DNA from: Blastocatellia bacterium
Lineage (GTDB): Bacteria; Acidobacteriota; Blastocatellia; UBA7656
Assembly: GCA_035293105.1 (NCBI GenBank)
Contig: DATDOV010000079.1
Span: 101,574-165,573 of the forward strand
Length of the DNA stretch: 64,000 nt
Direction: 5' to 3'
Position numbers and translations under genes: made by a program. The notes beneath the pieces were generated by a model. That model was not told the DNA's origin and ran no database searches. It saw only the letters and a program-made list of their open reading frames with translations. Below, piece by piece: positions 27,456 to 42,045 of the stretch (positions are counted from its first letter, which is position 1; each line of letters starts with the position of its first letter).

Positions 27456-27686
27456 ATGAGCATGAACCTCGAGGAACTAGAAACCGAGGCGCTACGCCTA
27501 GACCCGCAATCGCGCGCAAAACTAGCCGAACGGCTGTTGCACAGTCTGGACGATCTCTCGGATGAGGAGAACGAACGGCTGTGGGCCGAGGAGGCCCTGC
27601 GCCGCGAGGAGGAGATCGAGGCTGGCTTAGTCACGACGCGGCCAGCAGAGGAAGTGTACCGCGACGCACGGTCCAGGCTCAGATGA
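27456..27686 (+). CDS. addiction-module antitoxin (putative addiction module component family)
   Basis: MSMNLEELETEALRLDPQSRAKLAERLLHSLDD... typical of the small antitoxins paired with RelE/ParE-like toxins. Confidence 0.65.
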   Translation: MSMNLEELETEALRLDPQSRAKLAERLLHSLDDLSDEENERLWAEEALRREEEIEAGLVTTRPAEEVYRDARSRLR

Positions 27687-27907
27687 ACCGCCTACTGTCG
27701 TTCCATCCGGTGGCCGAGTACGAGCTATGCGAAGCGGCAGATTACTATGACCTTGAACGCCCAGGGCCAGGGAGAATCTTCCTTGATCAGGTAGAAAGTG
27801 CCACGAGCCAGATACTGCAATTTCCAGAAGCTGCGCTGGTTAATCGAGTCGGTCGCCGAGAGTTTCAGAGTGGGCGTTCGGATTTCCAAGAGCGAGGGCG
27901 TGACTAG
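27683..27907 (+). pseudogene. RelE/ParE-like toxin, C-terminally truncated remnant
   Basis: ATG overlaps the antitoxin stop (ATGA). N-terminal half (HPVAEYELCEAADYYDLERPGPGRIFLDQVESATSQILQFPEA) matches the toxin family. The C-terminal core (RRFPYGIIY...HGARD) is missing and the ORF ends early. Confidence 0.5.
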
Positions 27908-27930
27908 CTTTGGCTCTGTGAGGAGATGTC

Positions 27931-28192
27931 ATGCCGGAAATCAGCCGCTTTCTTGGCATCATCATCACGATGTATTTTAACGAGCACAACCCGCCGCATT
28001 TTCATGCACGCTACGGAGAACACAGGGCGGAGATCGCTATTCAAACCCTATCGATCATCGGCGGGAGGTTACCTCCCCGAGTGCTGGGGCTGGTTATGGA
28101 ATGGGCCGCTTTCGCATCGCGACGAACTAATGGAAGACTGGGAATTGGCCCGTCAGCAAACCGAGCTTAGACGGATTGCCCCACTGGAGTAA
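27931..28192 (+). pseudogene. DUF4160 protein with apparent frameshift
   Basis: N-terminus MPEISRFLGIIITMYFNEHNPPHFHARYGEH in one frame; family C-terminus ...HRDELMEDWELARQQTELRRIAPLE is in the +1 frame from about 28105. Confidence 0.55.
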
Positions 28193-28196
28193 ACCA

Positions 28197-28481
28197 ATGT
28201 TCCTTATCGACGTAGTAGATGTTAGGCCACTGGATGGTCATCAGCTTGAGCTAACGTTCAAGGACGGGCTGAAGGCCGTCGTGGATTTAGATCGGGTCAT
28301 TCGATCTTTCGAGGGAGTCTTCGCTCCGCTCAAAGATCCGGAGTATTTTCGACTGGTTCGTGTTGACACGGAGATTGGCACGATTGTCTGGCCCAACGGC
28401 GCTGACTTGTGCCCGGATGTGCTTTATTCCTATGCGTCCGGCAAGCCGATTATCGTGAACGGCGAGCGCGTCCTCAACTGA
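28197..28481 (+). CDS. DUF2442 protein (usual partner of DUF4160)
   Basis: MFLIDVVDVRPLDGHQLELTFKDG... about 95 aa. Confidence 0.6.
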   Translation: MFLIDVVDVRPLDGHQLELTFKDGLKAVVDLDRVIRSFEGVFAPLKDPEYFRLVRVDTEIGTIVWPNGADLCPDVLYSYASGKPIIVNGERVLN

Positions 28482-28874
28482 ATGAATCTGGGGACCTTTC
28501 GAGTGGGTTCGCCTCGCAAACCGGGCGACGGCTTGCGAGTCGGCACAGTGCGCTTTCTGCCGCGCGGAGTGAAGAAAGAAGACTACGCGCGACTGGACTA
28601 CTTCGACGTCTGGTTTCCGTTGCTGGCTCCAAGCTCGGAGCTGCTCAAGTGGCTGAAGAGCCGTGAGTGGCCAAGCGAGCAAGTGCGCTGGTCGAAGTTC
28701 AGAGAGCGCTACGTTGCCGAGATGAACAAGACCGACGCGCGTCAGGCTATCAAGCTTCTGGCAGAGCTAGCCAGAGCTACTTCGGTGAGCATAGGGTGTT
28801 ACTGTGAGGATGAGTCAGCCTGCCATCGCTCGACACTGCGGGCGTTGATAGAACGAGCCGCCATCTTGCCTTGA
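28482..28874 (+). CDS. DUF488 / YeaO-family protein (copy 1 of 3)
   Basis: ...RVGTVRFLPRGVKKEDYARLDYFDVWFPLLAPSSELLKW...GCYCEDESACHR aligns with E. coli YeaO ([36 protein letters not shown]). Confidence 0.75.
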   Translation: MNLGTFRVGSPRKPGDGLRVGTVRFLPRGVKKEDYARLDYFDVWFPLLAPSSELLKWLKSREWPSEQVRWSKFRERYVAEMNKTDARQAIKLLAELARATSVSIGCYCEDESACHRSTLRALIERAAILP

Positions 28875-28917
28875 GGAAGCTGGCCGCATGTCCTCAGCGG
28901 TGTATAATGAGCGAGCT

Positions 28918-29256
28918 ATGACAACCCTAGAGAATACTCAAGCCGTGCCCCTGACAGTCTGGGAAGACGGTTCGATTCGTGTCGCCGGCTCGCGGGTAAC
29001 GCTCGACTCGATTGTATATGAATTCAAGCTCGGCGCCACCGCGGAGCAGATCCTTCACAGCTTTCCGTCAGTTTCGTTGCGCGATATCTACGGCGCGATT
29101 TTCTATTACCTCAACAACACCGAGGTTGTCGAAGAGTACCTTGGTCACCGCGAACGGGGGGCGGAAGAGACGCGGTTGTTCATTGAGAGCCGCTTGGACA
29201 CGAGGTCCCTTCGCGAACGGATCCTGGCCAGGCGTGACCAGATGGTTGGCAGATAA
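28918..29256 (+). CDS. DUF433 protein (antitoxin-like partner of DUF5615)
   Basis: MTTLENTQAVPLTVWEDGSIRVAGSRVTLDSIVYEFKLGATAEQILHSFPSVSLRDIYGAIFYYL. Confidence 0.6.
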   Translation: MTTLENTQAVPLTVWEDGSIRVAGSRVTLDSIVYEFKLGATAEQILHSFPSVSLRDIYGAIFYYLNNTEVVEEYLGHRERGAEETRLFIESRLDTRSLRERILARRDQMVGR

Positions 29257-29286
29257 CGCGCGAGTCCGGCTACGCTTCGTGGCCTT

Positions 29287-29625
29287 CTGTTTGACGAAAA
29301 CTTCAATCATAGAATCGTACATGGGTTGCAATTGCGCCTGCCGGGTCTCGATTTCGTGATTGCTCAGGAAATAGAACTGAAGGGCGCCAAAGACCCGGAG
29401 TTGTTGGAGTGGGCCGCGACGCAGAACCGGGTCGTCGTCACGCATGACGTCGACACATTGTTGAAGTTCGCATACGAACGCATAGTTGGCGGCCAACTGA
29501 TGCCGGGCGTGATAGCCGTCCCACAGATCCTCCCGATAGGGCAAGCGATAGACGATCTGGCAACCGCCATCGAGTGCTCGGAGGCAAGCGATTTGGAGAA
29601 CTCAGTCTTGCACCTGCCTTTGTAA
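29287..29625 (+). CDS. DUF5615 (PIN-like) protein; start codon uncertain or non-canonical
   Basis: In-frame LLFDENFNHRIVHGLQLRLPGLDFVIAQE... begins right after the DUF433 stop. No ATG/GTG upstream; CTG at 29287 or TTG at 29326. Confidence 0.5.
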   Translation: MFDENFNHRIVHGLQLRLPGLDFVIAQEIELKGAKDPELLEWAATQNRVVVTHDVDTLLKFAYERIVGGQLMPGVIAVPQILPIGQAIDDLATAIECSEASDLENSVLHLPL

Positions 29626-29669
29626 CTGAAAGACGCGGGGACTGACTCGGGGCCGGCCTTGGATAAGAT

Positions 29670-29921
29670 ATGAAATACGAACTGTTCACCCGAGTCGCGC
29701 TGAATACCGATCTGCCGCGATACGGACTCCGCAGCGGGGACGTGGCAACGGTCATCGAGCACCATCCCGGACGGCCAGGCCAAGAGCCCGGCTACAGCCT
29801 TGAAGTGTCTAACGCGGTCGGGGAAACGGTCGCCGTGGTCACCGTCCGCGAGTCTCAGATCGTGCCGCTCAATGCCAACGAACCTTTGCATGTCCGCCTG
29901 CTGGCGGAAACGTCCCGCTGA
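29670..29921 (+). CDS. DUF4926 protein
   Basis: MKYELFTRVALNTDLPRYGLRSGDVATVIEHHP... 83 aa. Confidence 0.55.
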   Translation: MKYELFTRVALNTDLPRYGLRSGDVATVIEHHPGRPGQEPGYSLEVSNAVGETVAVVTVRESQIVPLNANEPLHVRLLAETSR

Positions 29922-29977
29922 TCGCTACCCGACGCGAATAGAACAGATGGACCGCGCCCGTCGGGGATCTGTTTAGG

Positions 29978-30382
29978 ATGCCGAGCTCCACGATAAATCT
30001 GGGAACGTTTCGAGTGGGCTCGCCTCGCAAGCGGGGCGAGGGCTTGCGAGTCGGCACAGTGCGCTTTCTGCCGCGCGGAGTGAAGAAAGAAGACTACGCG
30101 CGACTGGACTACTTCGACGTCTGGTTTCCGCTGCTGGCCCCAAGCTCGGAGTTGCTCCGATGGATGAAGAGCCGCGAGTGGCCAACCGAGCAAGTCAGGT
30201 GGTCGAAGTTCAGAGAGCGCTACACTGCCGAGATGAACAAGACCGCCGCCCGCCAGGCGATCAAGCTTCTGGCAGAGTTAGCCAGAGCGACGCCGTTGAG
30301 CATAGGGTGCTACTGCGAGACCGAGTCAGCCTGTCATCGCTCGATACTGCGTGAGTTGATTGAAAACGCGGCAGGCGAGTAG
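29978..30382 (+). CDS. DUF488 / YeaO-family protein (copy 2 of 3)
   Basis: About 90% nt identity to 28482-28874 over the whole gene. Confidence 0.75.
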   Translation: MPSSTINLGTFRVGSPRKRGEGLRVGTVRFLPRGVKKEDYARLDYFDVWFPLLAPSSELLRWMKSREWPTEQVRWSKFRERYTAEMNKTAARQAIKLLAELARATPLSIGCYCETESACHRSILRELIENAAGE

Positions 30383-30452
30383 GAGGGCTAGCCGTGCCGA
30401 TGAAGTCGCGGTTCAAGCGATGATATATCTGGACCATAACGAAGCAACTCGA

Positions 30453-30896
30453 TCATTTCACGTCGGCCGGAGAGACGGCAGTGATTCCTGGATAGCGCTT
30501 GAAGTCGGCTACGTTGAATGTAAGCAGATGCGTGATGCCATACACATTCATCGAAGCGACAAGCTTGGCATCGTGAACCTCAACGCCCATCACCGAGTGA
30601 GTTACAACAAGCCGCCGCCATTCCTGGAAGGTCGCTAGACTGTCCGGGAGCAAACGAAAGTAGCGTTCAATCAGACGCGCTTTTCGTTCTGTTTGAGTCA
30701 ATGAAAGGCTGAGCCCGCCGCGCGCCGAAGCCGGACGAGTACCGACGTTCCAGAACTCGCTCAGGACCTGTGGAGTGAAACAAAGAACTTCATTTCGCGA
30801 GCGGAGCCTTCGCAGAGCATCAAGAGCCATTTGGCGCTGCGGATCGTTGCGGTGGGCCAGCCGGAGAAACAGATTCGTATCGAAAAGATAGGCCAT
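30453..30896 (-). CDS. vapC: PIN-domain toxin (VapC-like)
   Basis: MAYLFDTNLFLRLAHRNDP... acidic PIN residues (D5, E, D, N/D). Confidence 0.75.
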   Translation of the reverse strand: MAYLFDTNLFLRLAHRNDPQRQMALDALRRLRSRNEVLCFTPQVLSEFWNVGTRPASARGGLSLSLTQTERKARLIERYFRLLPDSLATFQEWRRLVVTHSVMGVEVHDAKLVASMNVYGITHLLTFNVADFKRYPGITAVSPADVK

Positions 30897-31159
30897 CAGT
30901 CGTGGTCGAAGTAGATGTCGGCGCGCGAATAGCTCCCGGAGTAAGCTGGCAGATGCTCCGTTCCTTCGGCAAACGCTTGCATGTCCGCTTCAAACTCAGC
31001 GTCGTTCGCGGGAGCGGGCGCTGATAATTCATCAACTGATCGGGTTGCGCTGGCTTGCACAAGGCTCTCGACAAAGGACTTCACATCCAGGCCATACGCC
31101 TTAGCCCTTTGTTCCAAAATGTGTCTCACGTCTTCGGGAACTGAAATCGTTAATTCCAT
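30896..31159 (-). CDS. VapB-like antitoxin
   Basis: 87-aa ORF whose stop overlaps the vapC start. MELTISVPEDVRHILEQRAKAYGLDVKSFVESLV. Confidence 0.55.
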   Translation of the reverse strand: MELTISVPEDVRHILEQRAKAYGLDVKSFVESLVQASATRSVDELSAPAPANDAEFEADMQAFAEGTEHLPAYSGSYSRADIYFDHD

Positions 31160-31398
31160 TCGCGACTCTCTATCCGTTTCTCGATCCAGATTCCAAGTCC
31201 ACGTCTGTATCTATGAGTAGCGCATTGCTGTCGCGCCAGGATCTCCTTACTCATACAACGCGCCTCTTAGATTGGCAGCAGTATAGCACTCCGGTGACTA
31301 GCTGATAAGAGAGTACGATCAGACGCGTGCGCGTCACGATTTTGCGCGAGAAGGGAGGGACTGCTTGACCGTCGCAAAAAGTGCGTCACCCCAGAGTA

Positions 31399-31588
31399 TC
31401 TCATTAACACCTCACTTCAGTGAGGTGCCCTCGACCGAGCGGATCCCCCAACCGTTTCAACGGTTTCCTCTCTCGCAGTCGTCTTTCAAACTCGAAGTCT
31501 TCGGATTCCATGAGCGCAAACCGTTAAAACGGTTCAGGGGATCCGCCGAGCCAAGAGCACCTCACTGAAGTGAGGTGTTAATGAGAAC
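31399..31588. mobile_element. ~190-bp near-perfect palindromic MITE-like element
   Basis: Left end tctcattaacacctcacttcagtgaggtg and right end cacctcactgaagtgaggtgttaatgaga are reverse complements. Each end is itself a hairpin. Inner nested inverted repeats (gatcccccaaccgtttcaacggtt / aaccgttaaaacggttcaggggatcc). Confidence 0.6.
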
Positions 31589-31733
31589 CGATGTTCCCGC
31601 GAGCCTTGACGTCCCAGTTTTGATCACATCCCCAAACCGTGACGCGCACCCCGATCAGACGGCTCGGCCACGCAACCAAGTAGATGTTCGTAGTACCGGC
31701 TTCAGATGAAATCATGGCCTTGGCGTCGGCATA

Positions 31734-32048
31734 GTGCGCTTTCTGCCGCGCGGAGTGAAGAAAGAAGACTACGCGCGACTGGACTACTTCGACGTCTGGT
31801 TTCCGCTGCTGGCCCCAAGCGCTGAGTTGCTCACTTGGCTGAAGAGCCGCGAGTGGCCGAGCGAGCAAGTCAGATGGTCGAAGTTCAAAGAGCGCTACGT
31901 TGCCGAGATGAACAAGACCGACGCGCGGCAGGCTATCAAGCTTCTGGCCGAGTTAGCCAGAGCTACTCCGTTGAGCATAGGGTGTTACTGCGAGAACGAG
32001 TCAGCCTGTCATCGCTCTATGCTGCGTGAGTTGATCGAAGAGCCCTGA
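31734..32048 (+). pseudogene. DUF488 / YeaO-family protein (copy 3), 5'-truncated
   Basis: Homology to copies 1 and 2 starts at codon ~25 (RFLPRGVKKEDYARLDYFDVWFPLL...). First ~25 codons are replaced by unrelated sequence next to the palindromic element. Confidence 0.6.
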
Positions 32049-32136
32049 AGCTTTAGTGGGTCGTAGGATTGGTCCGACGCTTTCGCGATAATCTGCGATT
32101 TGAAGCAATCGAAAACTTGGGATAGGCTTACGTCCC

Positions 32137-33057
32137 ATGAAAAGCCTTGGTTCAGCCGGCAGCCTACCTTTGTTTGATGAATCTGCAGACGGCAACCCTC
32201 TTGAACATCAATCCGAGAAGCCCGAAAAGACTTCGCCCTTTAGCGACCTTGATCTGAATCGCTGGCGCGAATATGAAGACATCGTTACCGACTCGCTGTG
32301 GCTCATACCAGAACGGGACCGGACTGGCGCGCATCTCGCGGACTATCACGGAAACTTTGTTCCTCAAATCCCCTATCAGGCGATGCGGCGGTTTACGAAA
32401 CGCGGAGATGTTGTGCTCGACGCATTCTTGGGTTCCGGCACGACCCTCATCGAATGTCGCAGACTAGGGCGACACGGAATCGGCGTTGAGCTTAAGCCAG
32501 AGCTTGCAAAGCAAGCAGCCGACCGTATCGCGAGCCAAGGCAATCGCTACCAGGTCAAGACAGAGGTGCTGACGTCAGATAGTTGTGATCCCGTAAAGAC
32601 TCCTGGAGTCATTTCGCAGAGTCTTGAAACCATCGGCAAGGATTCAGTGCAGCTTGCAATACTTCATCCTCCGTATCATTCAATAATTAGGTTCTCTGAT
32701 CGTGCGGATGATCTGTCTAATTGCCCTACGGTTGACGTGTTTCAAAAAACGTTTGGCCGAGCGGTTGATGTAGTGACTCCATTCCTCGACATAGGCCGCT
32801 ATCTGGTCTTGGTCATCGGTGATATGTATGCTGGCAGCGAATGGATTCCTCTTGGATTTCGGTGCATGAACGAGATAATGGAGCGCGGGTACACTCTGAA
32901 GAGCATCGTCGTTAAAGATATGCAAGGAAATCGGGCTAAACGAAATCTGGAGAACATCTGGCGCTATCGCGCGCTAGTCGGCGGCTTCTACATCTTCAAG
33001 CACGAGTACGTCATGTTTTTCAGGAAGGGCAGAACGAATGGCCGAACTGCCATTTAG
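32137..33057 (+). CDS. N6-adenine or N4-cytosine DNA methyltransferase (R-M)
   Basis: Motif I VVLDAFLGSGTT; motif IV LHPPY (D/N/S-PP-Y variant). Confidence 0.8.
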   Translation: MKSLGSAGSLPLFDESADGNPLEHQSEKPEKTSPFSDLDLNRWREYEDIVTDSLWLIPERDRTGAHLADYHGNFVPQIPYQAMRRFTKRGDVVLDAFLGSGTTLIECRRLGRHGIGVELKPELAKQAADRIASQGNRYQVKTEVLTSDSCDPVKTPGVISQSLETIGKDSVQLAILHPPYHSIIRFSDRADDLSNCPTVDVFQKTFGRAVDVVTPFLDIGRYLVLVIGDMYAGSEWIPLGFRCMNEIMERGYTLKSIVVKDMQGNRAKRNLENIWRYRALVGGFYIFKHEYVMFFRKGRTNGRTAI

Positions 33058-33685
33058 TCAAGGCTCAAAGCTCCGTCAGACCTTTCAAATCCTCGCAGAT
33101 GGTAACTGGCATTGCGGCAAACATGAGTTGCCAGGAACGCAGCCTGCGAAGGCGATTCAGATCATCAGGCAGACCGGATACGAAGTAGAGAACAGGACGC
33201 AGCATTGCAATCGTTGCGACGAACGGACTGTCCACCGACGACTCGTTTCGACCAGCCCGTCGGCGAGCTCAGTGGCCCGGTCGGCGTTGCCGGAAAAGCT
33301 CAAGGGGCGTGTGAAGACGCTGTTCAAGAACATCGAGGCCATCACACAAAGAACCTACGAACCGAATCAGCTGGAGGTGGACCACCGTTTTCCGCAAGTA
33401 AGGTGGTCGAGCCCGGAGGCGATGAATGATCCGAACATGTCGGATGCTGATATCACTGCAAAGTTCCAGCTCCTTACACGGCAGCACAATCTATGGAAGA
33501 GTCGGTATTGTGAGGCATGTTTGAAAACTGGGCGTCGTGGGACCTATATCGGGATTGAGTACTTCTACGAAGGCGGCTTGATGTGGCCAGAGGACATTCA
33601 TCCAGACGACGAACGCGGCTGCATTGGTTGCTTTTGGTATGACCCTGAGAAATGGCGCCAGAGCCTGAACCAGCTTGTAAGCTAA
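33038..33685 (+). CDS. putative type II restriction endonuclease partner
   Basis: Overlaps MTase 3' end by 20 nt. Cys-rich (CGKH...CNRCDE...CEAC...CIGC) with an EVDHRFP HNH-like element. Confidence 0.45.
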   Translation: MAELPFSQGSKLRQTFQILADGNWHCGKHELPGTQPAKAIQIIRQTGYEVENRTQHCNRCDERTVHRRLVSTSPSASSVARSALPEKLKGRVKTLFKNIEAITQRTYEPNQLEVDHRFPQVRWSSPEAMNDPNMSDADITAKFQLLTRQHNLWKSRYCEACLKTGRRGTYIGIEYFYEGGLMWPEDIHPDDERGCIGCFWYDPEKWRQSLNQLVS

Positions 33686-33727
33686 CCTGCGCGGCCATCG
33701 GTGAAAGAGTACGAAACCCAAACCTGG

Positions 33728-34510
33728 TTATCCGAGGTCGCCGGGACGTACAGTCACTATAGTGAGAACGCGGTTGTAGTATGGCAATAGTATGGAGTCT
33801 TCCCACACCTTCCCAAAAACGTGTCCGGCTAGCCATGCCTCTGCACGTACGGCTCCGTCTTGCTCGCGCTCTTCCGTCGGGCGGAAGAGGTTGCTCGCGA
33901 GGGACTCGACGCTGACTTCAGTACCTTTGCGCTTGATGTAATGCTGGAATTGAGGGCCGGGTCTCCACCATTCAATTATCCCGCTGTCACTAACCACCAA
34001 AGCGCATTGTTCCTCAGTGACGTCGACGCACTTGACAGTAGCTGCGGTTAGCGAGGTCTGAAATTTCGCACTTATCTTTTTCGCGACCACCACGGTTGCT
34101 GACTCTTGTCGAACGATAGTGGCTGCTTGTGCCGATGGAATTAGCAATTCTGACGCGAACCGATTCGCGTCAATCTCGTGTTCTGGTGCGCCGCGGCTCC
34201 ACGATTCGACGTCGCGACTCTTACAAACGCAATCTAGCTCTCCGTGCCCCGGTAGAATGTAATGGCCGAGTTCGTGAGCGATCGTGAATCTCTTCCGGCC
34301 AGGCTCACGTATGGTCGCCTTAACAGCGACGATACCTGTCGGTTTGTTAGGAATACGAACCAACGCGCCTTCGAAACCCTCTGACTCGACCTCGCAAATC
34401 TCCAACCCGATTCTGTCCGCAAGCTCAGATAGATCGGGCGTCGTCGATATCTTGAATCGCCTTAAGAGCGCGCGAGCGAAGTCTTCAGGTTGTGCTGGTG
34501 TCCGATTCAC
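33728..34510 (-). CDS. ImmA/IrrE-family metallo-endopeptidase (COG2856, CapP-like)
   Basis: HEXXH (IAHELGHYIL) followed by EIDANRFASELLIP, the family signature E-x-N-x-F-A-x-x-L-L. Confidence 0.75.
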   Translation of the reverse strand: MNRTPAQPEDFARALLRRFKISTTPDLSELADRIGLEICEVESEGFEGALVRIPNKPTGIVAVKATIREPGRKRFTIAHELGHYILPGHGELDCVCKSRDVESWSRGAPEHEIDANRFASELLIPSAQAATIVRQESATVVVAKKISAKFQTSLTAATVKCVDVTEEQCALVVSDSGIIEWWRPGPQFQHYIKRKGTEVSVESLASNLFRPTEEREQDGAVRAEAWLAGHVFGKVWEDSILLPYYNRVLTIVTVRPGDLG

Positions 34511-34959
34511 TCTGACCCCGTATCGCCCTCGTCAAGCTTGCTTTTCAGCGAATCGAGGATTTCTTTGTCCTTGGAGGAGACCTTCTCGCCAAGCTTACGA
34601 CCGCGTAGCGAGGATACGGCCTCAGCGCCGGCAGAGGGCAGAGTCCCGCTCAACAGGTTAGCTAAGTAGCAGTCGGGGTCAACACCAGCAGACTCCGACT
34701 TCTTCTCTTCTGCACGCCGCAGATTCCTCAGAGCGTTCTCCACTGGGACCGGCACACTTTTGCTTTTCGACCTGAGTTCACGCACTCCAGCTTCGACTCT
34801 TGACATCAGCTTGGAAACCAGATCAGATGAATCAACACCACAAGCCTTAAGCACATCCTTGGCAGTTTCAAGATCAATCTCTTCGTCAGGCCCTAGTAAC
34901 GCCTCGAAGAGTTCATCTTCTTCGGTCTTTGGAAGTGGCTGGGTTCTTTTGTTAGGCAT
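34507..34959 (-). CDS. acidic low-complexity protein (candidate anti-sigma / peptidase substrate)
   Basis: 150 aa, highly charged. Translationally coupled on both sides: 14-nt gap to the upstream gene, 4-nt overlap with ImmA. Confidence 0.4.
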   Translation of the reverse strand: MPNKRTQPLPKTEEDELFEALLGPDEEIDLETAKDVLKACGVDSSDLVSKLMSRVEAGVRELRSKSKSVPVPVENALRNLRRAEEKKSESAGVDPDCYLANLLSGTLPSAGAEAVSSLRGRKLGEKVSSKDKEILDSLKSKLDEGDTGSE

Positions 34960-34973
34960 ACGCGGCCACCTTT

Positions 34974-35561
34974 CTAGTTACCCTTCTGCCGATACTTCAT
35001 CGATCCGGCACGGCGCCAGCCGGTAAGTCTCGTTCTCACTCTCCGCTGGCGGCCCCTCAGTTGCTGAGCGGTTATACCGAGGAACTCTGCAATTTCCTTT
35101 GGCTTTGCTGGCCACAACTCCAGAACCGCCTCAACATAATCCTCCAGTTCTTTCTCCCCTTTTACAAGAGCGTAGATTCTCGCCTTTGTGAGGGCATCGT
35201 GCTCAGCGTTCCCAAGGTCGTCCTCAAAGGCGTCGATTACCCTGAGAGCCTTCTCATGCTTTAGCGAGTCCAGAACGGTACTCCTCTTATACCCGCTGTG
35301 TTTCGTCACTATGTCCAGGAAATCACGCGTCATGACAGTCAGGAGCAACGGATATGGGTCTTCATCGTGTGTCTTGGGCCGCCATTCTACGCCTCTTTGG
35401 AATATGAAGGCTTCAACTGTCTCAACAGCAAAGTCTTCAGCGGATTTCCCAGACCCCGGTAGAACTGATAGCCCTTGACGGACGAATAGCCCTTCGGCAG
35501 CGGCATACAACCGACTTAGCAGGCCTTCCAGATCGACATTCGCGAAGCGTGAATCGTCCAT
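34974..35561 (-). CDS. divergent sigma-70-family (ECF-like) protein
   Basis: Region-2-like SAEDFAVETVEAFIFQR...DPYPLLLTVMTRDFLDIV and region-4-like HTH EIAEFLGITAQQLRGRQRRVRTRL. Confidence 0.45.
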   Translation of the reverse strand: MDDSRFANVDLEGLLSRLYAAAEGLFVRQGLSVLPGSGKSAEDFAVETVEAFIFQRGVEWRPKTHDEDPYPLLLTVMTRDFLDIVTKHSGYKRSTVLDSLKHEKALRVIDAFEDDLGNAEHDALTKARIYALVKGEKELEDYVEAVLELWPAKPKEIAEFLGITAQQLRGRQRRVRTRLTGWRRAGSMKYRQKGN

Positions 35562-35820
35562 TCCGGGACCTCTTCATTCTTAAAGCGAGTCAGGGTCTAG
35601 GAACTGGCAAGAAATCTGTCATCAAGAAATTTTTCTGCCAGTTTTAGCCGACACAGTCGCTTAGACAGTGGAGGTTGGCACCGGCCGATTAGCCGTCATC
35701 TAACAAGAGGCATGCTAACCCACGGAAAGGGCTAAGAGGAAGATCAACCAGACACGGACGATCTGCTTGGACGATCTGCTTGGCCACGACAGCAACCGAA
35801 CCTGAAGGGAGTTATCAACA
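35562..35820. promoter_or_regulatory. divergent control region between sigma/ImmA operon and Ubl operon
   Basis: Inverted repeat AACTGGCAAGAAAT-N13-ATTTTTCTGCCAGTT. GGAACT -35-like element. Tandem 14-mer gacgatctgcttgg x2. Confidence 0.45.
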
Positions 35821-36852
35821 ATGAGCAACAAAACCGATTCAACGGCTGTTGACGATCTCGTCGACGGCCAGTGGCTTGAAGATATCGATGCGGCGCTGCC
35901 TCAGGCGGTCGCCGAGGCCACAGTAGATGGACGGCTGCCCGCGAAAGCTCAACACCTGAAAGTTCAGGTTGGGTTTCGCGAATTGCCGGACGGGCACGAG
36001 GTCAAGTTCAAGGCCTCACTTACGAATACACTGCTGGAAGTGTTCGAATGGGCAGCGCAGGAACTCGGGAAACCTCTACTACCTCCCGCCAGCAACCAGC
36101 CGCTCGATCTATTGCGCTGTCGGGAGCGACACGGCGACGGCTGGAGCGAGCCTATCACAGGCCTCGACCGGCCGCTCTGGCTCGTGTTGGTTGAAAGCTG
36201 CTCTCGACATTTCGGAATCGAATATGTGCTGGCTGTTAAGATCAACACGAAGTGGGCCGTAGCACCGTCCGCAAAAATGACGCCGCGCGAGCTGCTCACT
36301 AGCTTTGGGTTTGATCCCTCTCAATTCAGCCTGTACAAGCCCGATAGCACGGAGCCGCTGCCGGCGGACACGCCGATCCCTCTTCATCGAGGAGAGAGGT
36401 TTGAAGCGCAGAAGGACGGGAAGTATGGAGCGTCGGTGATGGCAGAGCGTCCGGCGCGCGGCTCACAGACGATCGACGATGATCTGGAAGGAATAAGGGA
36501 GGCGGGTATCGACGCCCGCCTCCTCGACTCCAACGGACAAAAGTACGCCGAGGTGAAGGGAATAGCGGTACCGTCGCCTCCTTGGTCTCTGGACAGGCTC
36601 ACACTGCTGTTCGCTATTCCGGCTACGTACCCGACAGGCGGGCTCGACGCGTTCTACATCGAGTTGCCCGTTAGCCACGCTAGCGGTTCCGTTCCGTACC
36701 AATCTCAGACCGCGCAGATCGATGGCAGATCGTGGGGGCTGATCTCATGGCACTATCCGACCGGGCGGCCCTGGAACCCGTCGCATGACGATCTTTCTAC
36801 TCATATCGAGCATTGTCGTGGAGCATTGATGAGGCGTGGGGTGACGCAGTGA
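35821..36852 (+). CDS. multi-ubiquitin (tandem beta-grasp) domains fused to prokaryotic E2-like (UBC-fold) domain
   Basis: Two Ub-like repeats (HLKVQVGFRELPDGHEVKFKASLTNTLLEVFEWAAQELG; LAVKINTKWAVAPSAKMTPRELLTSFGFDPSQFSLYKPDS...IPLHRGERFEA). C-terminal E2-like region (...LLFAIPATYPTGGLDAFYIELPV...ISWHYPTGRPWNPSHDDL...). Confidence 0.55.
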   Translation: MSNKTDSTAVDDLVDGQWLEDIDAALPQAVAEATVDGRLPAKAQHLKVQVGFRELPDGHEVKFKASLTNTLLEVFEWAAQELGKPLLPPASNQPLDLLRCRERHGDGWSEPITGLDRPLWLVLVESCSRHFGIEYVLAVKINTKWAVAPSAKMTPRELLTSFGFDPSQFSLYKPDSTEPLPADTPIPLHRGERFEAQKDGKYGASVMAERPARGSQTIDDDLEGIREAGIDARLLDSNGQKYAEVKGIAVPSPPWSLDRLTLLFAIPATYPTGGLDAFYIELPVSHASGSVPYQSQTAQIDGRSWGLISWHYPTGRPWNPSHDDLSTHIEHCRGALMRRGVTQ

Positions 36853-36854
36853 AA

Positions 36855-38246
36855 ATGCGAATGACCGAACACCACTACCATGAGGTAAAGCGACTTACGT
36901 CTCCTTCCTTCTTGGATGGCATCCGGTTTCCTCCCGAGACAGGTTGCATCGTTTTAGTCGGGCGGAATAATCATCCAACGTATCCGTCAGTCGTAGTGGC
37001 CGATGTGCTGGCGCCCGAGGACGGAGAGTTGATTGAGCGAGAGAGTGATGGTCTCGTCTTCGCGAGCAAGTATTTGCGGCGCGCTCTGTTTCGATTGCGT
37101 GAGAAAGGGCTGGCGGGCTTCCTCACAGTCCACACCCACCCGTTCTCGGACACGCGTGTGAACTTTTCTCCCTATGATGACGCGAATGATCCCTCGCTGA
37201 TGGCAAATCTGTACGAGCTTGAGCCCCACGGCATTTTCGGCAGCATCGTGATGGGCAAAAGATCGGCGAGAGCTCGATTGTGGAATCCGGACGGAGATGG
37301 CTACCGCACACTCGAACCGATGATCATCGTCGGTGAGCGACTGCAATTCTTCAACGCTAATGGTGCCGAGGCCGAGGCGGAACCACAGGCAGCGGAGATC
37401 TTCGACCGCGGCTTGTCGATCACAGGTAGCGGCGCGTTAGCGCGACTCGCCTGCATGCGTGTTGGTCTGATCGGCAGCAGCGGAACCGGCTCTATTATGG
37501 CCGAATTGCTGATGCGCGCCGGTGTTGGCGAGATACTGCTTTTTGAGCCTGACTATGTGGAAGAACCCAACCTGAACCGGATGCTCCATTCCCGGCAGCG
37601 CGACGCGGAAGCTCGTGTAGGAAAGGCGTCCCGGCTGGCTGAAGCTCTTGCCGAGGCTGGTATGCCCACTCAGATCACGGTCGCCTCGGGCGGTGACATA
37701 CGCCGCGAGGAGGTAGCACTTGAGCTACGAGGTTGCGATTTGGTGATTGGTTGTGTTGATCGAGACTGGCCGCGCCTAATACTTTGCGAACTAGCTTATC
37801 AATACTTGATTCCGTACATAGACCTGGGAACAGAGATCGGTTTCGATGGGATTGAGATTCAGAGCCTCGATTCTCGCGTTTCGTATGTTGCGCCTGGTCG
37901 TCCTTGTCTTCTGTGTTCTGGCGTGGTGTCAACCGAGCGCCTTAGGCTGGAAGCACTAGAAGACAGCGAGCGAGACAGAGTTATCGCAATGGGTTACTCG
38001 GAAGACATTAGGCTCATCGCGCCTGCGGTCATGGATCTAAACATGCGCGCTGCCTCTTATGCGATGCTCGTTGTACGTCATCTCCTCCAGCCGTTCCTCG
38101 ATAGGCCGCTGCCGACTCATATCAAAGAATCAATCACTAACTTCAGTGTTCGACGAGTGACCAGTACCCAGAATTCGGACTGTCACGTCTGTGATGGTTC
38201 GAGGCTTGGAGTCGGAGACGCGCGCCGTTTGTCCACGGCTCGTTGA
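36855..38246 (+). CDS. JAB/MPN metalloprotease domain fused to E1-like ThiF/MoeB adenylyltransferase
   Basis: N-terminal JAMM-like motif LAGFLTVHTHPFSD...S..D. C-terminal Rossmann GLIGSSGTGSIMAELLMRAGVGEILLFEPDYVEEPNLNRM with CLLCSG and CHVCDG zinc pairs. Start immediately after the upstream stop. Confidence 0.7.
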   Translation: MRMTEHHYHEVKRLTSPSFLDGIRFPPETGCIVLVGRNNHPTYPSVVVADVLAPEDGELIERESDGLVFASKYLRRALFRLREKGLAGFLTVHTHPFSDTRVNFSPYDDANDPSLMANLYELEPHGIFGSIVMGKRSARARLWNPDGDGYRTLEPMIIVGERLQFFNANGAEAEAEPQAAEIFDRGLSITGSGALARLACMRVGLIGSSGTGSIMAELLMRAGVGEILLFEPDYVEEPNLNRMLHSRQRDAEARVGKASRLAEALAEAGMPTQITVASGGDIRREEVALELRGCDLVIGCVDRDWPRLILCELAYQYLIPYIDLGTEIGFDGIEIQSLDSRVSYVAPGRPCLLCSGVVSTERLRLEALEDSERDRVIAMGYSEDIRLIAPAVMDLNMRAASYAMLVVRHLLQPFLDRPLPTHIKESITNFSVRRVTSTQNSDCHVCDGSRLGVGDARRLSTAR

Positions 38247-38719
38247 TCGTTCTGACTGACTGGAACGCCAATCTTGGGCACGCAGACACGCCGCCGCCAT
38301 ACCCTTTGATCATCCTAATCCAGAACCCAGACGCCGCTTTCGCGAATTGCATCGTACATCGCGTCTGGTGCAAGATCACCACCGTTCGGCCACTGCACCA
38401 CACCCATAACCACTCGCGCTCCGGCAAATACGGCGGCTCGCGTAGCGGCTCGAACACTGTGCCGTCGATCTCAGAGCTGCTGAGAAACGCTCGCATATCT
38501 ACGTTCCCCGGCGTGCCATCGCCGAATCTTACGTGCAATTCCGGGAACGCAAAGACGCGAGAATCTCTAAGATCGCCAAGTGTGCTACCGCTTCAGTCCG
38601 TCACTAGAGGCTCGCGGCGGATTGTTCAGACATAGCCTACAACCAGAGAGACATCTCTCTTCGATTCGCGCTTCTATTCCTACCTTTGTGTTACAATCTC
38701 GCGAAAGGAGCGGAGCCAA

Positions 38720-38953
38720 ATCATTTCCGAGCAAGCCGAGAAAATCCTCGAACAGGCTTTGCAGTTGCCTTCCTCGCAACGCGCAGACCTGGTCGAGCGT
38801 TTGTTGGACAGTCTTGCGTTCGAAACTGACGAACGCATCGATGCGCTGTGGGCTGCCGAGGCCGAGAGTCGCATAGCTGCTTTTCGCCGGGGCGAGTTGT
38901 CGGCGGTACCGTCAGAAGACGTCTTTGCTGAGATCGAAGCGGAGGCTAATTGA
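38720..38953 (+). CDS. addiction-module antitoxin; probable non-ATG (ATC/ATT) start
   Basis: IISEQAEKILEQALQLPSSQRADLVERLLDSLAFETDERIDALWAAE... AAGGAG sits 9 nt upstream of ATC at 38720. First canonical start is an internal TTG at 38759. Confidence 0.5.
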   Translation: MISEQAEKILEQALQLPSSQRADLVERLLDSLAFETDERIDALWAAEAESRIAAFRRGELSAVPSEDVFAEIEAEAN

Positions 38954-39240
38954 AGGTTCAATTCCTCGAACCGGCCAAAGCCGAGTTGAAGGAAGCAGTC
39001 CGCTACTACAACCACCAGAGAGAAGGTCTCGGGCTCGAATTCGCCGCTGAAGTCAGAAAGGCAACTCAGCGAATCGCGAAGCTGCCGAAGGCCTCGCCAC
39101 CAATCTCAGGTGGCGCTAGAAGGTTTCTTCTTCGCAGGTTCCCTTACGGAATCATTTTATCTGGTCGAAGACAAAACGGTGCTTATTGTTGCTGTAATGC
39201 ATCTAGCGCGCGATCCTGTAGTCTGGCAGGAACGGCTGAA
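38950..39240 (+). pseudogene. RelE/ParE-family toxin with +1 frameshift
   Basis: KVQFLEPAKAELKEAVRYYNHQ...RRFLLRRFPYGI, then the conserved tail IYLVEDKTVLIVAVMHLARDPVVWQERLK is in another frame (shift at a T-run near 39160). Confidence 0.6.
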
Positions 39241-39412
39241 GTGACTCGATTATCGTGGCTAGGCTCCGCACCCGCCTCACGATCGAGCTTCCAGTCAAGG
39301 CTAGCGCTCAAAGGCACGGTCGTGGGCCGACTGCTTTGGTTCATGTGGTTCGTCCAACTCCGTGTAGCCACACAGAGCCGAGTCGAGTATACTCGCCAGC
39401 AAGGAGTAGGTC

Positions 39413-39664
39413 ATGACAACGATGTTTCCCATACCTCCGCCGGGGTTTGACCAGCTTTCAGTAGACGAGCAGATCCACTTCGTCGAGTCGCTGTGGGACC
39501 GAATCGCAGTGCATGCCGAACGGGTGCCGGTTCCCGACTGGCATCGCCACGTGCTCGCCGAAAGACTCGCCGCGTATGAGAGCGATCCCGACGCAGGTAA
39601 GCCGTGGGAGGAGGTCCGGGACGAACTCCAGCGAGAACTCCGAGACATTGATCGCCGGAAATGA
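39413..39664 (+). CDS. addiction-module antitoxin
   Basis: MTTMFPIPPPGFDQLSVDEQIHFVESLWDRIAV...DWHRHVLAERLAAYESDP. Confidence 0.6.
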   Translation: MTTMFPIPPPGFDQLSVDEQIHFVESLWDRIAVHAERVPVPDWHRHVLAERLAAYESDPDAGKPWEEVRDELQRELRDIDRRK

Positions 39665-39946
39665 CCAAACAGCGCGTGATCATCCGGCCCGAGGCGCAGC
39701 AGGACCTCCGCGAGGCGGCGCTGTGGTATGAGACTCCCAGGCCGGGCCTCGGAGAGCGTTTCGCAACCAAGATCGAGGGGTTGATCGAGCGAATAGCCGA
39801 CAAAGCCTCGCCAATTCCCTGAGATCGCCCACGGAGTCCGCCGGGCTTGGCTACAGGCATTTCCGTATTCGGTTTACTTCGTCGAATCTCCCGGCACCGT
39901 TTCGCTCATCGCCATTCTTCACCAGCATCGCCACCCCGATACCTGA
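39661..39946 (+). pseudogene. RelE/ParE-family toxin with frameshift
   Basis: MTKQRVIIRPEAQQDLREAALWYE... stops after ...ASPIP. Conserved tail QFPEIAHGVRRAWLQAFPYSVYFVESPGTVSLIAILHQHRHP continues in another frame. Confidence 0.55.
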
Positions 39947-40074
39947 AGCAAATAGACGATCATTATTCACTGGTTGAAACTGGTTGATTATCCACTGACC
40001 CTGGCAGATAATCCGCCACTTGACCGGTGCATGAGAAGCTAGAGGCAGACCGACGTTGCTCTAAACTAGGGGAT

Positions 40075-41088
40075 ATGGAAAACGAACCGCTGGGGCATTC
40101 TGAGATCATCCTCTACCAAACCGAGGACAAGCGTACTCGGATCGAGGTCAGGCTTGAGGACGAGACTGTCTGGCTCAGTCAAAGCCAGATGGCCGAGTTG
40201 TTCCAGACCACCAAACAAAACATCAGCCTCCACGTTAGGAACATCTTCGCTGAGCACGAATTGCAGGAGGACCAAGTTGTCAAGGAATACTTGACGACTG
40301 CAGCCGACGGCAAGAAATACGCAACCGGCCACTACAACCTCGATGTCATCATCTCCGTAGGTTATCGCGTCAAGTCCCACCGCGGCACTCAGTTCCGCAT
40401 CTGGGCGACTCAACGCCTGAGGGAGTACCTGATCAAAGGCTTCGCGCTGGACGATGAGCGGCTCAAAGAAGGCGGCACGAAGAACACTTACTTCGATGAA
40501 CTGCTGGCCCGGATCAGGGACATCCGCGCCTCCGAGAAGAACTTCTACCGCAAGGTCCTGGACATCTACGCGACAAGCATCGACTACGACCTACACTCGG
40601 ATGTCTCTTACGACTTCTTTGCGATCGTTCAAAACAAGATGCACTGGGCGGCGCACGGCCACACCGCAGCCGAGTTGATCGCCGAACGGGCCGACGCCGA
40701 TAAGCCCAATATGGGATTAACCTCCTGGAAAGACCCGAAGGTGCGAAAGTCGGACGTGACCGTCGCAAAGAACTACCTCAACGCCGACGAGATCGAAATC
40801 CTGAATCTGATCGTGAGTCAGTACCTGGACTTCGCCGAGCTTCAGGCCAGAATGAAGAAGGCGATGTACATGCGCGACTGGGTGCGCAAGCTGGACGATT
40901 TTCTGAGAGTGAATGAGCGGGAAATATTGAAGGACGCAGGTAAGATCTCGCATCAGCTTGCTCAGCAGTTGGCCGAAGCTGAGTACGACAAGTTCGAAAA
41001 GAAGCGGTTGGCGGCGGAATCCGAAGCCCCTAACAAGGACTTCGAGGAAGCGGTGAAGACACTCACCTCGCGAAAGCGGAAGAGGTAG
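40075..41088 (+). CDS. RhuM-family (Fic/DOC-related) virulence/defence-associated protein
   Basis: MENEPLGHSEIILYQTEDKRTRIEVRLEDETVWLSQSQMAELFQTTKQNISLHVRNIF... characteristic RhuM N-terminus. Confidence 0.8.
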   Translation: MENEPLGHSEIILYQTEDKRTRIEVRLEDETVWLSQSQMAELFQTTKQNISLHVRNIFAEHELQEDQVVKEYLTTAADGKKYATGHYNLDVIISVGYRVKSHRGTQFRIWATQRLREYLIKGFALDDERLKEGGTKNTYFDELLARIRDIRASEKNFYRKVLDIYATSIDYDLHSDVSYDFFAIVQNKMHWAAHGHTAAELIAERADADKPNMGLTSWKDPKVRKSDVTVAKNYLNADEIEILNLIVSQYLDFAELQARMKKAMYMRDWVRKLDDFLRVNEREILKDAGKISHQLAQQLAEAEYDKFEKKRLAAESEAPNKDFEEAVKTLTSRKRKR

Positions 41089-41384
41089 GCGACACACGCA
41101 CCGATCCGTGCGGCTGCCGGAGTTTGCTGTGAGCTCGCGTGCGGCTGTTTGTTGTCCAATCACTGGTCGCGTCCCGGTCGAGACTGCAACAAGAATGGAT
41201 AGAATTGCGATTGCCCCGGCGCGTCGATGAATTCTGACCGCGCTCGATGTCTTACGCAAAGTTGCGGTTGTTGCGCCAGCCATTCCCGGCCTCCTTAGGT
41301 GGCTACCCTGCCACACTATACACGGACGCAAAACCGGGGCATTTCAATGCATATTCTTTTCGAATCGTACGCGAGAGGGCTTAG

Positions 41385-41717
41385 TTATGAAGTCAAACCG
41401 CGAGGACTCATAGTAGTCCTCGATAGTCTCGTGCGCCGTGAATGATCCGATGAACGAAGATCGTTTGCTCCTCGCAAGTGTAAAAAGATCAGGTAATCCT
41501 GAACGACCAAATAGCGATAACCGAGATCAACCAGCGACGCATCACCAGATACGCGTCCCAGGTATGGGTTCAACGCCAACAGCCTCAGGTTCTTCTCGAT
41601 TCTCTGCGCAAGTGCTTCGGCGGCTTCCGGTCTTTGAGCCGCAATGTAGGTGACGATCTCAGTGAAGTCGTCCTCCGCTGCCCTCAAGAGCCGGACCGTG
41701 TGCTTACGCCGCTTCAC
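41385..41717 (-). pseudogene. RelE/ParE-family toxin with frameshift at a T5 run
   Basis: ...LGYRYLVVQDYLIF then the frame drifts. The +1 frame gives the canonical YTCEEQTIFVHRIIHGARDY tail. Confidence 0.6.
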
Positions 41718-41976: not shown

Positions 41977-42045
41977 CTTCAATCTCCTTCTACCGCGCTG
42001 CAAAATTATATCACTTAAAGATAAAGGAAAGGGGCCAAGGCGATT

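What the first reader, a model, noticed from the sequence alone, without database searches (positions are those of the whole stretch)
27683..41717. Toxin genes selectively inactivated while cognate antitoxins stay intact
All four RelE/ParE-like toxin genes in the island are disrupted. 27683-27907 lacks its C-terminal core. 38950-39240, 39661-39946 and 41385-41717 each need a 1-nt frameshift to restore the conserved ...IFY..E..TI.V.RI.HGARD tail, and two of those shifts lie in T-runs. The adjacent antitoxin ORFs are full-length. DUF4160 is also frameshifted. Large core genes in the window (765-aa Clp, 958-aa DUF2339, 737-aa OMP, pckA and others) show no such lesions. That argues against random homopolymer sequencing error. 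It favours genuine toxin decay with retained antitoxins (anti-addiction), or slippage-based on/off switching.
Basis: seen in the sequence. Interest (0 to 1): 0.55.

Follow-up and report, generated by a model that had tools for sequence, protein, structure and literature searches.

The report
Decaying toxin-antitoxin genes in island
Four ParE-type toxin genes in a 14.8-kb genomic island of a soil Blastocatellia bacterium are truly broken rather than mis-sequenced, but this is the ordinary "toxin dies first" decay of toxin-antitoxin modules, and one antitoxin and several neighbouring small genes are damaged too.

Summary
The window has exactly four ParE-like toxin loci, and all are disrupted. 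T1 lacks its core. T2, T3 and T4 each carry a 1-nt insertion, and removing it restores a full-length PF05016 match. DUF4160 is also frameshifted.

The lesions are real. Nineteen contigs from at least 10 independent short-read metagenome assemblies match the window at 99.5-100% identity with no gaps across every lesion site. Intact relatives of T2 and T4 (~83-85% nt identity) pin those lesions to T insertions. More than 100 homologues of T4 are full-length 102-aa proteins.

"Selective inactivation with intact antitoxins" is only partly right:
- Antitoxin A2 has ATT where its intact relative has ATG.
- T2 stops four codons before its closest intact relative, and T3 has a nonsense codon at a conserved Trp.
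- A DUF2442 gene is split by a 2.86-kb insertion and frameshifted.
- One DUF488 copy is 5'-truncated, and DUF5615 lacks a canonical start.
- The VapC toxin is intact.

Phase variation and programmed frameshifting are not supported. The runs are short, no intact allele exists in any assembly, and the shift is not conserved in homologues.

The island sits between two genes that are adjacent in related species. Stepwise, toxin-first erosion is already documented (Belot et al. 2026). The finding is real but ordinary.

The parts
27456..27686 (+). A1, antitoxin (Unstab_antitox, PF09720), intact, 76 aa
   Evidence: Pfam 2-54/54. The identical protein occurs on 12 contigs.
27683..27907 (+). T1, ParE-like toxin remnant of 74 aa. 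Only residues 1-61 are homologous. The beta-sheet core (about 23-27 codons) is missing, possibly through an in-frame internal deletion.
   Evidence: BLASTP to T2 and T3, E 3e-8 and 8e-8. phmmer hits align to residues 1-61 of 92-98-aa proteins. HMM 1-61/99 only. No Pfam hit.
27931..28192 (+). DUF4160 gene with a +1-nt frameshift at about 28110-28115. The native ORF ends at 28170.
   Evidence: Native 66.9 bits over profile 1-54/65; repaired 89 bits over 1-65/65. Three-frame translation.
29272..29625 (+). DUF5615 (PIN-like) gene after DUF433. The conserved N-terminus has no ATG/GTG/TTG in front of it; ACG sits at 29272. Possible start-codon loss (tentative).
   Evidence: The version extended upstream hits profile 3-57 at 44.2 bits. 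The ORF from the first canonical start hits 16-57 at 32.1 bits. Sequence.
30453..31159 (-). VapC (PIN, 147 aa) and its upstream partner (87 aa), both intact. This is a counter-example to 'toxins are selectively lost'.
   Evidence: ORFs. Gene calls with PF01850.
31734..32048 (+). Third DUF488 paralogue, 5'-truncated
   Evidence: Pfam profile covered only from position 21. Homology to copies 1 and 2 starts at 31716.
38315..38532 (-). 3' part of a DUF2442 gene that in relatives directly follows ParE. Here it is separated from its 5' end and frameshifted.
   Evidence: blastn of L021, L022 and L023 against the window. Three-frame translation.
38533..41388 (.). 2.86-kb segment (A2-T2, A3-T3, rhuM) inserted inside that DUF2442 gene
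   Evidence: In L021-L023, Phd-ParE-DUF2442 is contiguous. In the window the matches are 41389-41952 and 38311-38532.
38723..38953 (+). A2, antitoxin (PF09720). Its start codon is ATT where the 88%-related intact module has ATG. The first canonical start (TTG, 38759) lies 12 codons downstream of that ATT.
   Evidence: DNA alignment with L020. Pfam. The L020 antitoxin is 76 aa.
38950..39244 (+). T2, ParE toxin pseudogene. One T is inserted at the T run 39155-39158. Its stop codon also lies 4 codons earlier than in the closest intact relative.
39413..39664 (+). A3, antitoxin (PF09720), intact, 83 aa
   Evidence: Pfam 1-54/54. Orthologues are 81 and 84 aa.
39661..39946 (+). T3, ParE toxin pseudogene. 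One base is inserted within 39802-39812, so the 0-frame stops at 39820-39822. TGA also replaces the conserved Trp codon at 39944-39946.
41408..41717 (-). T4, ParE toxin pseudogene with a single lesion: T4 became T5 at 41482-41486. The native 110-aa ORF runs on to 41385.
41704..41976 (-). A4, Phd/YefM antitoxin, intact, 90 aa, with its upstream region conserved
   Evidence: Pfam. Alignment with L023 and L022.
27261..42045 (.). The whole low-GC island, lying between an OCD/mu-crystallin gene and a B12-binding radical-SAM gene
   Evidence: GC 0.51-0.58 against about 0.61-0.63 in the flanks. The two flanking genes are adjacent, or separated by other cargo, in related Blastocatellia genomes.

Best explanation
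This is a lineage-specific mosaic island inserted at a recombination hot spot of a Blastocatellia genome. Its small toxin-antitoxin-type cassettes are eroding by ordinary mutation: 1-nt insertions, a deletion, nonsense and start-codon changes, and a nested 2.86-kb insertion.

In each ParE module the toxin was hit first. While a toxin is active, losing its antitoxin is lethal, so only toxin-first paths survive. After the toxin dies, the antitoxin drifts neutrally.

The four modules sit at different stages:
- T4/A4 is the freshest, with one T insertion.
- T3/A3 has a frameshift plus a nonsense codon.
- T2/A2 has a frameshift and an early stop, and the antitoxin's ATG is now ATT.
- T1/A1 has lost the toxin core.

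The two T-run lesions fall where the conserved I-(I/F)-Y motif is encoded (ATY-TTY-TAY or ATY-ATY-TAY). That stretch holds the only T run of 4 or more in each of those two genes.

Shown: the lesions, their reality, their lineage specificity and the island context. Inferred: the order of events, neutrality of the antitoxins, and loss of toxicity.
For: - Lesions defined by frame-split profile hits and native-versus-repaired Pfam scores.
- Nucleotide-level comparison with intact relatives.
- The same sequence, with no gaps, in 19 contigs from ENA, Logan and JGI assemblies of at least 10 samples.
- Homologues of T4 (119 of the 120 listed) and of T2 are full length, and only this lineage's copies deviate.
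- Damage beyond the toxins: A2 ATG to ATT; DUF2442 split and frameshifted; DUF488 copy 3 truncated, DUF5615 without a start, DUF4160 frameshifted.
- After the first hits, 2 secondary lesions lie in about 1.2 kb of toxin DNA and 1 in about 1.0 kb of antitoxin DNA. This shows no detectable protection of antitoxins (my count).
- The island is absent from the orthologous site in 36 related genomes. There the flanking genes are adjacent or hold other cargo.
- Published precedent: toxin only pseudogenised N=185, both N=186, antitoxin only N=8, described as 'toxin inactivation precedes antitoxin loss' (PMC13617665).
Against: - No expression or toxicity data exist.
- All contigs are essentially one clonal population, so selection on the antitoxins (dN/dS) cannot be measured.
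- The large island genes (methylase, M78 peptidase, E2/E1 pair, RhuM) and VapBC are intact. Decay is therefore concentrated in the small cassettes rather than uniform, which neutral decay alone does not fully explain.
- All four 1-nt lesions are insertions, which is mildly odd. Under a symmetric chance model that is about 1 in 8.
Confidence: 0.85

Rival explanations
1. Retained antitoxins are kept by selection as anti-addiction or anti-defence immunity. They would neutralise cognate ParE toxins arriving on plasmids or phages, so the toxin loss with antitoxin retention would be adaptive rather than a transient stage of decay.
For: - A1, A3 and A4 are full length with complete Pfam domains.
- The upstream regions of A2 and A4 are conserved with intact relatives.
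- A promoter-like site precedes A3.
- The concept is established in the literature (cited in PMC13617665).
Against: - A2 has lost its ATG.
- The antitoxin lesion density is not lower than the post-inactivation density in the toxins, although the numbers are small.
- The toxin-first order is expected without any selection for antitoxins.
- No cognate intact ParE above 88% identity was found anywhere that they could protect against.
Confidence: 0.12
2. Sequencing or consensus artefact: homopolymer indel errors in one assembly create false frameshifts.
For: Two of the lesions lie in T runs.
Against: - An identical sequence with no gaps is seen in MEGAHIT (ENA), Logan and JGI assemblies of at least 10 samples, covering every lesion site.
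- 26 kb of core coding sequence holds 158 runs of 4 or more and 12 runs of 6 or more with no break.
- T1 is a deletion, and T3's lesion is not in a T run.
Confidence: 0.01
3. Slipped-strand phase variation: the T tracts switch the toxins on and off reversibly.
For: The T2 and T4 lesions are single-T length changes in T tracts.
Against: - The tracts are only 4-5 nt. By my own knowledge, known contingency loci use about 7 or more.
- T1 and T3 do not involve T tracts.
- T3 has a second lesion and T2 ends four codons early.
- No length variant appears in any of the 19 contigs.
- No ON allele exists in the protein database.
Confidence: 0.01
4. Programmed +1 ribosomal frameshifting keeps toxin output very low. 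All four 1-nt lesions require a +1 shift. T4's site C-UUU-UUA-C would allow tRNA-Phe to re-pair in the +1 frame ahead of the rare UUA codon. T3's 0-frame ends in CCC-UGA.
For: - All four shifts have the same polarity.
- UUA is the rarest Leu codon, at 1.27 per 1000.
Against: - The shift is not conserved. More than 100 T4 homologues and all close T2 and T3 homologues are single-frame.
- The conserved QFPE motif of T3 lies in the +1 frame upstream of the CCC-UGA.
- The T2 and DUF4160 sites offer no good re-pairing.
- TTA after the run follows simply from F/I-Y coding.
Confidence: 0.01

Closest known systems
Two-step erosion of chromosomal type II toxin-antitoxin systems (Belot et al., Mol Biol Evol 2026, PMC13617665)
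   Same: TA modules are clustered in a high-turnover spot between conserved genes. The toxin is pseudogenised by truncation or frameshift while the antitoxin ORF persists, and later both decay. RelE/ParE modules are included.
   Different: The host here is an uncultured Blastocatellia (Acidobacteriota) population known only from metagenomes. There is no functional validation. All four ParE modules in one island are dead at once.
ParE/RelE-superfamily toxins (PF05016) paired with Unstab_antitox (PF09720) or Phd/YefM (PF02604) antitoxins
   Same: The gene order is antitoxin then toxin, with overlapping stop and start codons. The repaired toxins give full-length PF05016 matches, and the antitoxins give full-length domain matches.
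   Different: As encoded, none of the four toxins contains the complete domain.
Anti-addiction modules / orphan antitoxins (Saavedra De Bast et al. 2008, as cited in PMC13617665)
   Same: Chromosomal antitoxin genes are present without a working cognate toxin.
   Different: No evidence was found that these antitoxins are selected or expressed. One has lost its ATG. No matching incoming toxin was identified.
Phase-variable contingency loci (homopolymer slipped-strand mispairing)
   Same: The reading frame depends on the length of a homopolymer in two of the genes.
   Different: The tracts are far shorter, no length polymorphism is seen, and additional lesions are present.

Membership tests
ParE/RelE toxin family (PF05016) | Full-length match to the ParE_toxin profile (about 89 positions) in one reading frame | tested here: not met
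   Native ORFs: T1 and T2 give no hit, T3 covers 1-42/89 below the cut-off, and T4 covers 1-72/89. After a 1-nt repair, T2, T3 and T4 cover 1-88/89 or 1-89/89. They are pseudogenes of family members.
ParE/RelE toxin family (PF05016) | Located immediately downstream of, and overlapping, a small antitoxin gene | tested here: met
   Each toxin ORF overlaps its antitoxin ORF: A1/T1, A2/T2 and A3/T3 by 4 nt, and A4/T4 by 14 nt.
Eroding chromosomal TA system (toxin-first, two-step decay) | Inactivating lesion in the toxin, relative to intact close homologues, with the antitoxin ORF retained | tested here: met
   T2 against L020, T4 against L022 and L023, T3 against L028 and L029, T1 against P0181 and P0186. 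A1, A3 and A4 are intact.
Eroding chromosomal TA system (toxin-first, two-step decay) | Later-stage lesions also appear in the antitoxin or in neighbouring genes | tested here: met
   A2 ATG to ATT. DUF2442 split and frameshifted. DUF4160, DUF488 copy 3 and DUF5615 damaged.
Eroding chromosomal TA system (toxin-first, two-step decay) | Location in a variable spot between conserved core genes | tested here: met
   OCD and the radical-SAM gene are adjacent or hold different cargo in related genomes. The island has low GC.
Anti-addiction / orphan antitoxin | The antitoxin is expressed and neutralises a cognate toxin carried by an incoming element | not testable with these tools
   This needs transcriptomics and kill/rescue assays.
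Anti-addiction / orphan antitoxin | Purifying selection on the antitoxin after toxin loss | tested here: inconclusive
   All 19 contigs are 99.5-100% identical, so no divergence is available. One of four antitoxins has lost its ATG.
Phase-variable contingency gene | Long simple-sequence tract whose length varies within the population | tested here: not met
   The tracts are T4 and T5. No gaps occur among the 19 contigs. No intact allele exists in the database.
Programmed ribosomal frameshift gene | Frameshift site conserved among homologues | tested here: not met
   Homologues are single-frame and of normal length.

The most novel reading that the evidence does not exclude
The dead-toxin modules might not be junk. 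The intact antitoxins A1, A3 and A4 could be maintained as immunity (anti-addiction or anti-defence) against ParE-bearing mobile elements that repeatedly land in this hot spot. They might act together with the retained 53-78-residue N-terminal toxin stubs as co-repressors. A rarer variant of this reading is that the uniformly +1 lesions permit trace recoding that yields sub-lethal toxin.
Probability: 0.1. Interest if true: 0.45.

Novelty: already known. Interest (0 to 1): 0.2.

Why it matters
The finding gives a clean snapshot of toxin-antitoxin erosion in an uncultured Acidobacteriota lineage, confirmed across independent assemblies. Four modules sit at four stages of decay inside one hot-spot island. 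That matches the acquisition-then-erosion model recently derived from Photorhabdus.

It has practical value for annotation. The source's own names (NCBI) given in the database for the 110-aa and 53-aa fragments read "RelE/ParE family toxin", with no pseudogene note in the name. TA counts taken from metagenome-assembled genomes may therefore overstate the number of functional toxins.

It does not reveal a new mechanism.

Tried and rejected
- Sequencing error. Rejected by 19 identical contigs from at least 10 assemblies and by the clean core homopolymers.
- Phase variation and programmed +1 frameshifting. Considered because two lesions are in T runs and all four need a +1 shift. Rejected for lack of conservation, short tracts, second lesions and no alternative alleles.
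- T1's missing C-terminus elsewhere in the window. Searched with family HMMs on all six frames; not found.
- Orthologous copies of the island in other species. The 36 related loci contain no ParE-like sequence and no island protein at E below 1e-5. Hence no orthologue-based dating or dN/dS was possible.
- A first phmmer run on those loci timed out and was replaced by tblastn and hmmsearch.
- A simple GC3 frame survey was too noisy to use for frameshift detection in the core. I relied instead on gene calls from independent assemblies.
- An Rfam scan of the window found nothing.
- Consensus promoter scans gave a site only before A3 and are not informative for this phylum.
- The count of 116 of 149 T1-like cluster representatives lacking the core was not used as a frequency. 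Clustering at 50% identity and the N-terminal query both inflate fragments.


Full report
**What is there**

The window's GC content falls from about 0.61-0.63 to 0.51-0.58 between roughly 27.3 and 42.0 kb. That stretch is packed with small cassette genes. In order they are:
- Unstab_antitox with a ParE-like gene (A1/T1)
- DUF4160 with DUF2442
- three DUF488 paralogues
- DUF433 with DUF5615
- DUF4926
- VapB with VapC
- a methylase with an ICEA-like endonuclease
- an M78 peptidase operon
- a Prok-E2_E gene with a JAB-ThiF (E1) gene
- a DUF2442 remnant
- two more Unstab_antitox/ParE pairs (A2/T2 and A3/T3)
- rhuM
- a Phd/ParE pair (A4/T4)

**Checking the observation**

They find exactly four ParE-like loci in the 64 kb, and each is broken.
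- T4 has profile positions 1-81 in one frame and 78-102 in another.
- T2 has 2-71 and 69-96 in two frames.
- T3 has 2-45 and 45-90 in two frames.
- T1 has only 1-61 of 99, and the rest is nowhere in the window.

Pfam gives the same picture.
- Native T2 has no hit. Repaired, it scores 35.6 bits over 1-88/89.
- Native T3 scores 19.5 bits over 1-42/89. Repaired, it scores 28.9 bits over 1-88/89.
- Native T4 scores 42.8 bits over 1-72/89. Repaired, it scores 63.3 bits over 1-89/89.
- DUF4160 rises from 66.9 bits (1-54/65) to 89 bits (1-65/65) after repair.
- T1 aligns to T2 and T3 over its first ~50-60 residues only.
- T1 also aligns to 92-98-aa relatives over residues 1-61 only.
- T1's last ten residues (RSDFQERGRD) weakly resemble the family's C-terminal RRPFYWRGRR. 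An in-frame internal deletion of the core is therefore plausible but not proven.

**The exact lesions, from intact relatives**

- T2: an 88%-identical intact T2 (P0124, locus L020) reads GGA-ATC-ATC-TAT-CTA where the window reads GGA-ATC-ATT-T-TAT-CTG. That is one inserted T at 39155-39158.
- T4: two intact relatives (L022, L023; ~84-85% nt identity) have ATC-TTTT-AC where the window has ATC-TTTTT-AC, at 41482-41486.
- T3: relatives at 53-55% identity place one extra base within 39802-39812. They also show that the window has TGA where they have the conserved Trp codon, at 39944-39946.
- All four single-base lesions, counting DUF4160, are insertions.

**Are they real?**

An exact-protein look-up of A3 and A1 returned 19 contigs. 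They come from five ENA MEGAHIT assemblies, four Logan assemblies of SRA runs and two JGI metagenomes. All are 99.5-100% identical to the window with no gaps. Between them they cover:
- the T1/DUF4160 sites in at least 9 samples,
- T2 in 8 contigs,
- T3 in 9 samples,
- T4 in 4 samples.

A 26-kb sample of core coding sequence contains 158 homopolymer runs of 4 or more and 12 runs of 6 or more, with no broken ORF. Gene calls on the flanks show no split genes. The frameshifts are genuine.

**Are they programmed or switchable?**

They are not.
- Of the 120 best T4 homologues, 119 are single-frame proteins, almost all exactly 102 aa. The only exception is this lineage's own 110-aa product, named by NCBI as a Blastocatellia MAG protein.
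- T2's homologues are 82-103 aa.
- No intact allele above 88% identity to any of the three toxins exists in the 5.8-billion-cluster database.
- The tracts are only T4 and T5. T3 has a second lesion and T2 ends four codons early.
- The 19 contigs show no length variants.
- T3's 0-frame does end in CCC-TGA, a motif I know to be prone to +1 slippage. However, the conserved QFPE motif already lies in the +1 frame upstream of it.
- TTA following the T runs is a by-product of the way the conserved I-(I/F)-Y motif is encoded.

**Is the damage selective for toxins?**

Only partly.
- The intact relative L020 starts its antitoxin with ATG seven bases after GGAG. The window has ATT at that position (38723). 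The first canonical start (TTG, 38759) lies 12 codons further on.
- T2 also stops four codons earlier than its closest intact relative.
- In relatives, Phd-ParE-DUF2442 is one overlapping operon. In the window only about 25 nt of the DUF2442 gene follow T4.
- The rest of that DUF2442 gene lies 2.86 kb away, at 38532-38311. It carries an extra frameshift. The segment holding A2/T2, A3/T3 and rhuM sits in between.
- DUF488 copy 3 lacks profile positions 1-20.
- DUF5615, a PIN-like gene, has its conserved N-terminus upstream of any ATG/GTG/TTG.
- VapC is intact. So are A1, A3 (orthologues are 81 and 84 aa) and A4.

After each toxin's first hit I count two further lesions in about 1.2 kb of toxin DNA and one in about 1.0 kb of antitoxin DNA. 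That gives no sign that antitoxins are protected, although the numbers are small.

**Context**

Thirty-six loci from other genomes in the collection, mostly Blastocatellia MAGs, carry a relative of the OCD gene (35-81% identity). In about ten of them the OCD and radical-SAM genes are directly adjacent. In others the two genes are separated by 1-7 kb of unrelated cargo: nucleotidyltransferase-like pairs, or TIR-like ~1000-1100-aa proteins with SEC-C-motif proteins. None contains ParE-like sequence or any island protein. The 14.8-kb island is therefore a lineage-specific mosaic at a hot spot.

**Explanation**

This is ordinary stepwise erosion of TA cassettes. While a toxin is active, losing the antitoxin is lethal. 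Only toxin-first paths survive, and the antitoxin then drifts. The four modules are at different stages:
- T4/A4 has one lesion.
- T3/A3 has two toxin lesions.
- T2/A2 has two toxin lesions plus a lost antitoxin start.
- T1/A1 has lost the toxin core.

This is the pattern reported for Photorhabdus: toxin only pseudogenised in 185 copies, both genes in 186, antitoxin only in 8. Those authors describe it as "toxin inactivation precedes antitoxin loss", in spots of high turnover (PMC13617665).

Anti-addiction selection on the surviving antitoxins cannot be excluded, but nothing requires it.

**Verdict**

The phenomenon is already known, and interest is low (0.2).

Noticed in passing
window 41976-41389 (-) and 38532-38315 (-); L021, L022, L023: In three related contigs, Phd-ParE is followed by a DUF2442 gene whose ATG overlaps the ParE stop codon (ATGA), giving a conserved three-gene operon. 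In the window this third gene is split by a 2.86-kb insertion. A DUF4160-DUF2442 pair also sits right after A1/T1. The role of DUF2442 next to ParE is unknown.
   Followed up: partly
window 27261-42045; L030-L064: The intergenic site between the OCD/mu-crystallin gene and the B12 radical-SAM gene is a cargo hot spot in Blastocatellia. The two genes are adjacent in about 10 species. Elsewhere they hold 1-7 kb of different cargo, for example TIR-like ~1000-1100-aa proteins with a SEC-C-motif protein, or 188-aa plus 86-aa nucleotidyltransferase-like pairs.
   Followed up: partly
window 35821-38246 (+), with 33728-35561 (-): A Prok-E2_E protein (343 aa) is followed by a JAB-motif plus ThiF/E1 protein (about 461-477 aa). 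Nearby are an M78 peptidase (260 aa) and two unannotated proteins (150 and 195 aa). This looks like a ubiquitin-like conjugation (E1/E2/JAB) cassette of the kind linked to defence. All genes appear intact.
   Followed up: no
window 28482-28874, 29978-30382, 31734-32048: There are three DUF488 paralogues at 89-91% nucleotide identity, spaced about 1.5-1.7 kb apart. The third is 5'-truncated. Related contigs (L020-L022) also carry a DUF488 gene next to ParE modules.
   Followed up: partly
window 31399-31586; also 45862-46004: An inverted repeat with 50-nt arms (88% complementary, 88-nt spacer) lies in the gap between vapB and DUF488 copy 3. A second palindromic element near 45.9 kb matches, in both orientations, a region of the unrelated contig L020. 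Both look like MITE-like elements or structured repeats. Rfam has no match.
   Followed up: no
L015 (ERZ27254860), window 27768-27799: The only notable variation among the 19 contigs is a cluster of 7 substitutions within 32 nt. It lies inside the T1 remnant, with none in A1 or the flanks. This could be a gene-conversion patch or relaxed constraint.
   Followed up: no
P0035 (110 aa), P0121 (53 aa): The source's own names (NCBI) listed for the frameshifted T4 and T3 products read 'type II toxin-antitoxin system RelE/ParE family toxin', with no pseudogene note in the name.
   Followed up: no
P0180-P0328: Of 149 cluster representatives matched by T1's N-terminal 60 residues, 116 lack the ParE core and carry unrelated tails or are short. 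Only 23 are full length. Clustering and the query inflate this figure, but it hints that decayed copies of this ParE subfamily are very common in metagenomes.
   Followed up: partly
window 32137-33685 (+): An N6/N4 DNA methylase (306 aa) overlaps a 215-aa protein that has a weak ICEA (restriction endonuclease) match. This is probably a type II restriction-modification pair.
   Followed up: no
window 29257-29330: The conserved N-terminus of DUF5615 (LLFDENFNHRIV) is preceded by no ATG/GTG/TTG after the DUF433 stop codon. ACG sits where a start would fit. This is either start-codon loss in another toxin-like gene or a non-canonical start.
   Followed up: partly
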